Shown in pieces: positions 704 to 2,980 of a DNA stretch of 64,000 nt (positions within the stretch are counted from its first letter, which is position 1; each line of letters starts with the position of its first letter). The translations under genes and the position numbers were made by a program. The notes beneath the pieces were generated by a model, which saw only the letters and a program-made list of their open reading frames with translations, was not told the origin of the DNA and searched no databases. The stretch lies in assembly GCF_056746865.1 (NCBI RefSeq), contig NZ_CM163382.1; one strand, given 5' to 3'.

Positions 704-1153
704 ATGGCGGAAATTGGTATTTTTGTCGGCACCATGTACGGAAATTCGCTGTTAGTGGCGGAAGAAGCAGAAGCAATTCTGACCGCACAGGGCCACAAAG
801 CAACGGTATTTGAAGATCCTGAATTAAGCGACTGGCTGCCCTATCAGGATAAGTATGTTCTGGTGGTTACGTCCACGACCGGGCAGGGCGACCTTCCTGA
901 TAGCATTGTGCCGCTCTTTCAGGGAATCAAAGATACCCTGGGCTTCCAGCCGAATCTGCGTTATGGCGTGATTGCGCTCGGCGACAGTAGTTATGTGAAT
1001 TTCTGCAATGGCGGCAAACAGTTCGATGCCTTGTTGCAGGAACAGAGCGCTCAGCGAGTGGGAGAAATGCTGTTGATTGACGCCAGTGAGAACCCGGAAC
1101 CGGAAACGGAATCAAATCCGTGGGTCGAACATTGGGGCACGCTGTTGTCCTGA
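704..1153 (+). CDS. yqcA: flavodoxin-like protein YqcA
   Basis: 149-aa ORF, ATG 18 bp after truC stop; short-chain flavodoxin-like sequence (GTMYGNS...[10 protein letters not shown]). Confidence 0.8.
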
Positions 1154-1167
1154 TACGTTCAGCGAGC

Positions 1168-1230
1168 GGTAAATGCCGTTTTAGCGGTGTAAATGCCGTT
1201 TTAGCGGTGTAAATGCCGTTTTAGCGGTGC
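1168..1230. repeat. tandem direct repeat, three copies of a ~20-bp unit GGTGTAAATGCCGTTTTAGC (first copy 18 bp)
   Basis: read directly: cggtaaatgccgttttagc / ggtgtaaatgccgttttagc / ggtgtaaatgccgttttagc / ggtgc, immediately 3' of yqcA. Confidence 0.8.
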
Positions 1231-1627
1231 TGAATCGAATCTTTTCAGGCAAATGCCAGTAAAAACTGCTTCATAGCGCGGATTTTTACTGGCGTTTGCC
1301 TGGAGTCAAGCGATCCATTTCATACTCTTCTTTATTTCTTCGTTTTAACCCTTCCTTTCTTGTTCTTGTTTTCATTTCCGTGAAGTGGATTCCACCGTCC
1401 AGGGCTAATGCCAAAATTGGGCCTCATTGAACGCATTAATGTTGTGTTGTTGCACGGTGAGCCGCTATGGCGCGCTTTTTATACTGCTATTGCCAGATAT
1501 AAACACGCGCCGTATTCGGCGAACGACCTATAAAAACGGCAAAAAACACCCTACGTCACCTCTGATTTCCTGGCGATGTCGCAGTCCAGAGTGAGCGTGG
1601 CTAACGCGAATTTTCAGGAGTGCAACA

Positions 1628-2980
1628 ATGAGTTCTTTAAGTCAGGCTGCGAGCAGTGTGGAAAAACGCACGAATGCTCGTTACTGGATAGTGGTGATGT
1701 TGTTTATCGTCACATCCTTCAACTACGGCGACCGCGCTACGCTTTCTATTGCCGGTTCGGAAATGGCCAAAGATATCGGCCTTGATCCCGTGGGAATGGG
1801 CTATGTGTTCTCTGCCTTCTCATGGGCTTATGTTATCGGGCAGATCCCTGGTGGTTGGTTGCTGGATCGTTTTGGTTCAAAACGCGTCTACTTCTGGTCG
1901 ATCTTTATCTGGTCGATGTTTACCTTGCTGCAAGGCTTCGTCGATATCTTTAGTGGATTCGGCATTATCGTTGCCCTGTTTACGCTGCGCTTCCTGGTCG
2001 GGCTTGCTGAAGCGCCATCTTTCCCCGGCAACAGTCGCATTGTTGCGGCCTGGTTTCCGGCGCAGGAAAGGGGAACGGCGGTGTCGATTTTTAACTCCGC
2101 TCAATACTTCGCAACGGTGATCTTCGCGCCGATTATGGGCTGGCTGACGCATGAAGTGGGCTGGTCACACGTCTTCTTCTTTATGGGCGGTCTGGGGATT
2201 GTCATCAGCTTTATCTGGTTGAAAGTCATCCACGAGCCAAATCAACATCCGGGGGTAAATCAGAAAGAGCTGGAGTACATCGCCGCGGGTGGCGCGCTGA
2301 TCAATATGGATCAGCAAAACACCAAAGTTAAAGTGCCGTTCAGCGTGAAGTGGGGGCAGATCAAACAACTGCTCGGGTCACGGATGATGATCGGCGTTTA
2401 TATCGGTCAGTACTGTATCAACGCCCTGACTTACTTCTTTATTACCTGGTTCCCGGTTTATCTGGTGCAGGCGCGTGGGATGTCGATTCTGAAAGCGGGC
2501 TTTGTGGCTTCCGTTCCGGCGGTTTGCGGTTTTATCGGCGGTGTGCTGGGTGGGATTATTTCCGACTGGCTGATGCGCCGCACGGGATCGCTGAACATTG
2601 CGCGTAAAACACCGATCGTAATGGGCATGTTGCTGTCGATGGTGATGGTGTTCTGCAACTACGTCAACGTTGAGTGGATGATCATCGGCTTTATGGCGCT
2701 GGCCTTCTTCGGTAAGGGCATCGGGGCGCTGGGTTGGGCAGTAATGGCAGATACCGCGCCAAAAGAGATCAGCGGTCTTTCCGGTGGCCTGTTCAACATG
2801 TTCGGTAACATTTCTGGCATCGTCACGCCAATCGCAATTGGTTATATCGTTGGCACGACTGGCTCCTTTAATGGGGCGCTGATTTATGTTGGTGTTCATG
2901 CCTTAATCGCGGTACTGAGCTACCTGGTGCTGGTGGGCGATATCAAGCGTATCGAGCTGAAACCTGTCGCGGGGCAATAA
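1628..2980 (+). CDS. gudP: glucarate/galactarate MFS transporter GudP
   Basis: 450-aa ORF; hydrophobic multi-TM MFS sequence matching recalled E. coli GudP. Confidence 0.9.

What the first reader, a model, noticed from the sequence alone, without database searches (positions are those of the whole stretch)
1168..1230. Three tandem 20-bp repeats immediately 3' of yqcA
Near-perfect direct repeats in the yqcA-gudP intergenic region, upstream of the glucarate operon promoter. They could be a repeated regulator binding site or a simple tandem duplication.
Basis: seen in the sequence. Interest (0 to 1): 0.2.

Follow-up and report, generated by a model that had tools for sequence, protein, structure and literature searches.

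The report
Strain-variable 20-bp tandem repeat after yqcA
The three perfect 20-bp repeats just after the yqcA gene are real. They are an ordinary copy-number-variable tandem duplication found in about 3% of E. coli genomes, not a conserved control element for the glucarate operon.

Summary
Confirmed: window 1169-1229 holds 3.05 perfect head-to-tail copies of GTAAATGCCGTTTTAGCGGT. The array starts 15 nt after the yqcA stop codon and ends 398 nt before the gudP ATG.

Across 5,426 complete E. coli genomes the unit is normally single-copy:
- about 5,242 genomes (96.6%, K-12 included) have one copy;
- 170 (3.1%) have 2-6 perfect copies;
- 13 have a different, shorter spacer.

Every sampled genome with 3-6 copies, like the window itself, belongs to one near-identical clone. 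These genomes differ by 0-3 SNPs in 19.8 kb, and one of them is the strain named "O15:H18 strain ST69". Copy number therefore changes faster than point mutation. The 2-copy genomes have diverged flanks but share an identical core of at least 2.2 kb around the array, which suggests one founding duplication followed by slippage.

The unit is absent outside Escherichia. It sits in the only poorly conserved spacer of an otherwise very conserved intergenic region. It is not dispersed elsewhere, cannot code, and has no promoter or terminator signature.

Best reading: a neutral lineage-marking VNTR. The one unexcluded twist is that the expanded array folds into a sense-strand-specific RNA hairpin in the yqcA 3' region. 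Low interest.

The parts
704..1153 (+). yqcA (flavodoxin) coding sequence; stop codon TGA at 1151-1153
   Evidence: ORF list; RefSeq annotation of orthologous loci
1154..1168 (.). 15-nt unique spacer between the yqcA stop codon and the first repeat unit (TACGTTCAGCGAGCG)
   Evidence: Sequence; alignment with K-12 and M-17
1169..1188 (.). Repeat unit 1, GTAAATGCCGTTTTAGCGGT
   Evidence: TRF; exact pattern match
1189..1208 (.). Repeat unit 2, identical to unit 1
1209..1228 (.). Repeat unit 3, identical. In single-copy strains only one of the three units is present.
1229..1229 (.). G that repeats the first base of the unit (the only microhomology at the duplication junction). It is also the first base of the conserved downstream module GCTGAATCG...
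   Evidence: Sequence; comparison of 1-, 2-, 3- and 6-copy alleles
1229..1318 (.). Neighbouring conserved ~90-nt module, not part of the repeat. It includes the 27-bp-stem inverted repeat 1247-1305 and the GTCAAGCGA box, and it marks the 3' limit of the variable spacer.
   Evidence: Cross-genus comparison; RNA folds
1628..2980 (+). gudP (galactarate/glucarate/glycerate transporter), first gene of gudPXD
   Evidence: ORF list; RefSeq annotation

Best explanation
The array is a lineage-specific variable-number tandem repeat (VNTR) in the short, poorly constrained spacer between the yqcA stop codon and a conserved intergenic module. Proposed history: one illegitimate duplication of a 20-bp segment, with only a single G of microhomology at the junction, produced a 2-copy allele in one local haplotype. 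Replication slippage or unequal sister-strand exchange between the now-identical 20-bp copies then expanded it stepwise to 3-6 copies in one clone, to which the window belongs. The array most likely has no regulatory role and is useful only as a strain marker. Shown here: the copy-number polymorphism, its restriction to a clade, and the lack of conservation. Inferred: the slippage mechanism and the neutrality.
For: Population counts:
- The locus is present in 5,425 of 5,426 complete E. coli genomes.
- Only 170 of them hold two or more tandem copies of the unit.
- An even-step sample of 60 of those 170 had array spans of 121, 101, 81, 61 and 41 bp, that is 6, 5, 4, 3 and 2 copies, in 1, 1, 5, 29 and 24 rows. 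Exact copy counts were verified on 15 fetched loci with two or more copies.
- A query with the alternative-spacer allele split the genomes into 5,242 (ordinary spacer, gapped alignment spans of 136, or 133 in rows where the match stops at query position 118), 170 and 13. I read these classes as one copy, multi-copy and alternative spacer.
- K-12 MG1655 has one copy, carrying a C>T change. No genome has a tandem array of that T-variant unit.

Clonal structure:
- All 11 sampled genomes with 3-6 copies differ by 0-3 SNPs over 19.8 kb of flanks, and they match the window with 0-1 SNPs over 9.9 kb. Four copy-number alleles thus exist on one haplotype.
- The four sampled 2-copy genomes have flanks diverged by 90-281 SNPs per 19.8 kb. 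They are nevertheless identical to the 3-6-copy haplotype for at least 1,367 bp on the left and 821 bp on the right of the array.
- The 1-copy genomes with the closest short flanks already differ within 43-189 bp of the array.

Lack of functional signatures:
- The unit is not conserved outside Escherichia. Other genera have a terminator-like hairpin or REP-like sequence in this spacer.
- No promoter-like or terminator-like site lies in the array, and there is no Rfam match.
- The unit is not found elsewhere in the window.
- The single-stranded DNA fold is not significant on either strand.
- A period of 20 is not a multiple of 3, and TAA and TAG in the unit stop every reading frame within two units (sequence).
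Against: Neutrality is inferred, not measured; no expression data were available. As sense-strand RNA, the 3-copy array with short flanks folds at -34.7 kcal/mol with z = -4.5, whereas the antisense strand does not (z = -0.4). The 1-copy allele gives only weak local pairing. An effect on the yqcA transcript is therefore not excluded. Three copies, not two, is the commonest expanded allele; that could reflect clonal sampling or weak selection. Copy numbers for all 170 genomes were estimated from a sample, not counted one by one.
Confidence: 0.85

Rival explanations
1. The repeats are an array of binding sites for a regulator of the gudPXD operon (CdaR or another factor), with copy number tuning expression.
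For: The array lies in the yqcA-gudP intergenic region, upstream of gudP. Three identical sites at 20-bp spacing would sit on roughly the same face of the helix (inference).
Against: The unit is single-copy in about 96.6% of E. coli genomes, including K-12. Copy number ranges from 1 to 6 and varies within one clone. The unit is absent in other genera that keep gudP and a conserved gudP-proximal block at window ~1376-1470. The array ends 398 bp before the gudP ATG and is separated from the proximal block by a long conserved hairpin module. In K-12 the unit carries a substitution. No literature support was found.
Confidence: 0.03
2. The expanded array acts at the RNA level. In the yqcA 3' untranslated region it forms a copy-number-dependent stem-loop that changes mRNA stability, 3'-end formation or read-through towards gudP.
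For: The sense-strand RNA of the 3-copy allele folds at -34.7 kcal/mol with z = -4.5, and 0 of 200 shuffles fold as well. The antisense strand gives z = -0.4, so the structure is strand-specific through G-U pairs. The single-copy allele shows only weak local pairing. E. coli has no obvious canonical terminator between the yqcA stop codon and the array, so the array is probably transcribed (inference).
Against: Any tandem repeat whose unit contains GCGG and GCCG will fold like this. There is no conservation or covariation to test, because the copies are identical. Ninety-seven per cent of strains do without it. Copy number drifts within one clone. No transcript data were available.
Confidence: 0.07
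3. The repeat is an assembly or sequencing artefact of this one genome.
For: None beyond the general fact that short tandem repeats can be mis-assembled.
Against: Perfect arrays of 2-6 copies occur at the same position in 170 independently assembled complete genomes from many laboratories.
Confidence: 0.01

Closest known systems
Intergenic VNTR loci of enterobacteria, as used in MLVA strain typing (general knowledge; no specific published locus was matched)
   Same: Perfect head-to-tail copies of a short non-coding unit at one chromosomal site. Copy number is polymorphic among strains and changes faster than flanking point mutations.
   Different: Polymorphism is low. 96.6% of genomes have a single copy, and expansion is confined to one local haplotype or clone. 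I found no record of this locus in the searchable literature.
Operator or iteron arrays (repeated protein-binding sites upstream of promoters or origins)
   Same: Directly repeated ~20-bp units in an intergenic region upstream of a regulated operon.
   Different: Copy number and presence are not conserved. The array is far from the conserved gudP-proximal block. No recognisable factor motif was identified.
Dispersed intergenic repeats of E. coli (REP/BIME, ERIC and similar)
   Same: Non-coding sequence located just after a stop codon. REP-like elements occupy the same spacer in Enterobacter and some Citrobacter.
   Different: The unit occurs at only one place in the window, and every megablast match in E. 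coli genomes is at this locus. It has no strong palindrome at the DNA level.

Membership tests
VNTR (variable-number tandem repeat) | Head-to-tail copies of one unit without spacers | tested here: met
   TRF: period 20, 3.0 copies, 100% identity, no indels
VNTR (variable-number tandem repeat) | Copy number differs among strains at the same locus | tested here: met
   1 to 6 copies among complete E. coli genomes
VNTR (variable-number tandem repeat) | Copy number changes on a background that is otherwise identical, i.e. faster than point mutation | tested here: met
   3, 4, 5 and 6 copies among 11 genomes with 0-3 SNPs per 19.8 kb of flanks
VNTR (variable-number tandem repeat) | Changes arise by replication slippage or unequal exchange | not testable with these tools
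   Inferred from the stepwise series 2-3-4-5-6 of perfect copies; it needs fluctuation assays
Repeated regulator-binding site (operator or UAS array) | Unit and copy number conserved among strains and related species that keep the regulated operon | tested here: not met
   Single copy in ~96.6% of E. coli; unit absent outside Escherichia although yqcA-gudP synteny is kept
Repeated regulator-binding site (operator or UAS array) | Demonstrated binding of a factor to the unit | not testable with these tools
   No footprint data found; it needs EMSA or footprinting
Dispersed repeat families (REP/BIME, ERIC) | Many copies scattered over the genome | tested here: not met
   No other copy in 64 kb with up to 3 mismatches. 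All E. coli matches to the array query are at this locus, though that query detects only tandem copies, not single units
Intrinsic terminator | G+C-rich hairpin followed by a T run | tested here: not met
   The consensus scan finds no terminator-like site in 1154-1236 on either strand
Coding tandem repeat | Period a multiple of 3 and an open frame through the array | tested here: not met
   Period is 20. TAA and TAG in the unit close every frame within two units (sequence), and no ORF spans the array
Known RNA family (Rfam) | Match to a curated covariance model | tested here: not met
   Only two chance-level miRNA matches (E 0.4-0.7), both on the neighbouring hairpin and none on the array

The most novel reading that the evidence does not exclude
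Expansion of the repeat creates a stable, sense-strand-specific RNA stem-loop in the yqcA 3' region, whose size depends on copy number. It would act as a heritable, quickly mutable dial on yqcA mRNA stability or on transcriptional read-through towards the gud operon in the ST69-like clone.
Probability: 0.06. Interest if true: 0.35.

Novelty: new member of a known kind. Interest (0 to 1): 0.1.

Why it matters
It matters little biologically. It is one more intergenic VNTR, and the evidence argues against a role in glucarate regulation. Its practical value is as a cheap PCR-length marker. Three or more copies appear to mark one clone (the one containing 'O15:H18 strain ST69'), and copy number differs among near-identical isolates of that clone, which could help fine typing. 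It also illustrates the two-step birth of a VNTR: a rare founding duplication with almost no microhomology, then frequent slippage.

Tried and rejected
- Flanked queries with 1, 2 or 3 units, meant to count each allele exactly. The tool joins overlapping pieces, so the coverage counts did not separate alleles. These short queries also found only 4,870 genomes, probably for lack of an exact 28-mer in SNP-bearing strains (not resolved). They were replaced by the unit x10 query and the alternative-allele query.
- Rfam scan of 600-2000 at E<=1: nothing relevant.
- Promoter and terminator scan: nothing in the array.
- Single-stranded DNA folding of the array as a slippage-prone hairpin: not significant.
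- Literature searches for yqcA+gudP, the unit sequence, yqcA+tandem repeat, CdaR+gudP binding sites and Cra+gudP. I found no data on this region. Monterrubio et al. 2000 (PubMed 10762278) is not held, and Rogers et al. 2015 (PMC4551912) does not describe the gudP upstream region.
- Consensus RNA structure of the neighbouring conserved module across 19 sequences: none, and 0 compensatory pairs. An sRNA or riboswitch reading of that module is therefore not supported.
- Cra/FruR-like box at 1229-1242: one mismatch to the consensus recalled from memory. Such matches are frequent (26 in the window against 14 expected), so this is only a weak lead.

Full report
**Observation**

The window begins inside truC. 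It continues with yqcA (704-1153, flavodoxin), a 474-bp intergenic region, and then gudP (1628-2980) and gudX. Tandem Repeats Finder reports one array in this region: 1169-1229, period 20, 3.0 copies, 100% matches, score 122, unit GTAAATGCCGTTTTAGCGGT. The unit is found nowhere else in the 64-kb window with up to three mismatches, and shuffled controls gave no matches. It starts 15 nt after the yqcA stop codon and ends 398 nt before the gudP start codon.

**Copy number in E. coli**

A 701-bp query across the region matched 5,425 of 5,426 complete E. coli genomes. In an even-step sample of 40 genomes, 37 had a span 40-41 bp shorter than the window, which corresponds to one copy. Alignment with K-12 MG1655 and strain M-17 shows exactly one unit in each; the K-12 unit carries a C>T change.

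A query of ten tandem units matched only 170 genomes. In an even-step sample of 60 of these, the array spans corresponded to 6, 5, 4, 3 and 2 copies in 1, 1, 5, 29 and 24 genomes. Scaled to 170, that is about 3, 3, 14, 82 and 68 genomes. Exact copy counts were verified on 15 fetched loci with two or more copies.

A query carrying an alternative spacer allele (strain N96) split the 5,425 genomes into three classes:
- 5,242 genomes with the ordinary spacer (alignment span 136, or 133 in rows where the match stops at query position 118);
- 170 genomes, a number that equals the multi-copy count, as expected if arrays split the alignment into two pieces;
- 13 genomes with the N96-type spacer.

No genome has a tandem array of the K-12-type T-variant unit. 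The three-copy state of the window is thus a minority allele, present in roughly 1.5% of genomes.

**Who carries the array**

I fetched 10 kb on each side of the array for 17 genomes and aligned the flanks.
- All 11 genomes with 3-6 copies differ from each other by 0-3 SNPs in 19.8 kb.
- They differ from the window by 0-1 SNPs in 9.9 kb.
- One of them is named "O15:H18 strain ST69". The window therefore comes from this clone, and four different copy numbers sit on what is effectively one haplotype.
- The four 2-copy genomes have flanks diverged by 90-281 SNPs per 19.8 kb. All of them are nevertheless identical to the clone for at least 1,367 bp on the left and 821 bp on the right of the array.
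- The 1-copy genomes with the most similar short flanks (EC476 and 405) already differ within 43-189 bp of the array.

The simplest reading is one founding duplication in one local haplotype, later shuffled by recombination in its outer flanks, and then stepwise expansion in one clone. The junction shares only one base (G1169 and G1229). The first duplication was therefore an illegitimate event, and the later steps had 20-bp identical copies to slip on (inference).

**Other species**

I fetched the region downstream of yqcA from 80 species representatives and read it.
- Within Escherichia, the 3' half of the unit (AAATG[C/T]CGTTTTAGCGG) is recognisable in the cryptic-clade representatives and E. 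whittamii. It is never duplicated there. The E. albertii representative (L021) shows no unit or module after yqcA.
- One E. coli-like representative (E69), and 13 E. coli genomes, have a different spacer that is 15 nt shorter.
- In Citrobacter, Salmonella, Enterobacter and beyond, the spacer instead holds a terminator-like hairpin (CCCTCCC...GGGAGGG) or REP-like sequence, and the unit is absent.
- Sequence conservation begins exactly at the base after the array ([G/A]CTGAATCG) and continues through most of the remaining intergenic region.

The array therefore occupies the one stretch of this intergenic region that is free to vary.

**Functional signatures**

- No promoter-like or terminator-like site lies in the array.
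- There is no Rfam match on it.
- No ORF crosses it. A 20-bp period with TAA and TAG in the unit closes all frames within two units.
- Single-stranded DNA folding is not significant on either strand.
- As sense-strand RNA, the three-copy array with short flanks folds at -34.7 kcal/mol (z = -4.5), while the antisense strand does not (z = -0.4). The one-copy allele shows only weak local pairing. This follows from the GCGG and GCCG blocks in the unit pairing across copies through G-U pairs. It is the only hint of a possible consequence of expansion, and I keep it as a low-probability rival.

**Regulator-site idea**

The array ends about 150 bp upstream of the gudP-proximal block that is conserved across genera (window ~1376-1470, TTTCCGTGAA...AATGTTGTGTT..TGCACGGTGAG). 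The conserved module 1229-1318, with its long hairpin, lies between them. Strains and genera with a working gud operon have one unit or none. I found no published footprints for this region.

**Verdict**

This is an ordinary intergenic VNTR, new as a described locus but of a well-known kind. It arose from a rare duplication and then slippage, and it marks an ST69-like clone. My confidence is 0.85 in that reading, 0.07 in an RNA-level effect on yqcA, and 0.03 in a regulator-site array. Interest is low.

Noticed in passing
window 1229-1318: A ~90-nt non-coding module starts at the base after the array. Its conserved pieces are [G/A]CTGAATCG.GT.AGC, GGCAnnTGCC, GCATTT.CA and GTCAAGCGAC. It keeps a fixed ~76-nt spacing in Escherichia, Citrobacter, Salmonella, Silvania, Kosakonia, Phytobacter and Superficieibacter. 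It has no Rfam match and no cross-genus consensus RNA structure, so it looks like DNA-level sites of unknown function.
   Followed up: partly
window 1247-1305: A very stable inverted repeat with a 27-bp stem. RNA folding gives -40.3 kcal/mol (z = -9.9) on the + strand and -31.7 kcal/mol (z = -8.0) on the - strand. The arms appear to change in a compensating way in some Citrobacter and Salmonella (by eye, e.g. CCAGTAAAA/TTTTACTGG versus CCTGTAAAA/TTTTACAGG), but the hairpin is not conserved in more distant genera. It may be a bidirectional terminator or a protein site.
   Followed up: partly
window 1229-1242: GCTGAATCGAATCT matches the Cra/FruR consensus RSTGAAWCSNTHHW (recalled from memory) with one mismatch. 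Such matches are common: 26 in the window against 14 expected. No literature link between Cra and gudP was found.
   Followed up: partly
L005 (NZ_CP095856, E. coli EC6563), locus 1654-2027: This genome lacks gudP, gudX and gudD. yqcA lies directly next to barA, and the intergenic sequence breaks off shortly after the conserved hairpin.
   Followed up: no
L004 (E. coli N96) 389-430; L009 (E. coli E69): Thirteen of 5,426 E. coli genomes carry a different spacer after yqcA that is 15 nt shorter: TGA[A/C]AAATTGCCGTTTTAAGCAAACTGAATCG. It keeps only the GCCGTTTTA core of the unit.
   Followed up: partly
window 1376-1470: The block TTTCCGTGAAG...GGGCTAATGCC...AATGTTGTGTTGTTGCACGGTGAG is conserved upstream of gudP in nearly all Enterobacteriaceae examined. 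It is a candidate for the core regulatory region of gudP (possibly a CdaR site). It was not tested.
   Followed up: no
window 1893-1922: A 15-bp x2 direct repeat (93% identity) inside gudP, in frame and coding for the [10 protein letters not shown] segment. It appears trivial.
   Followed up: no
E. coli genome searches: Short 100-140-nt queries over the spacer missed 556 genomes that longer or different queries found. The likely cause is that SNPs leave no exact 28-mer for megablast, but this was not resolved.
   Followed up: no
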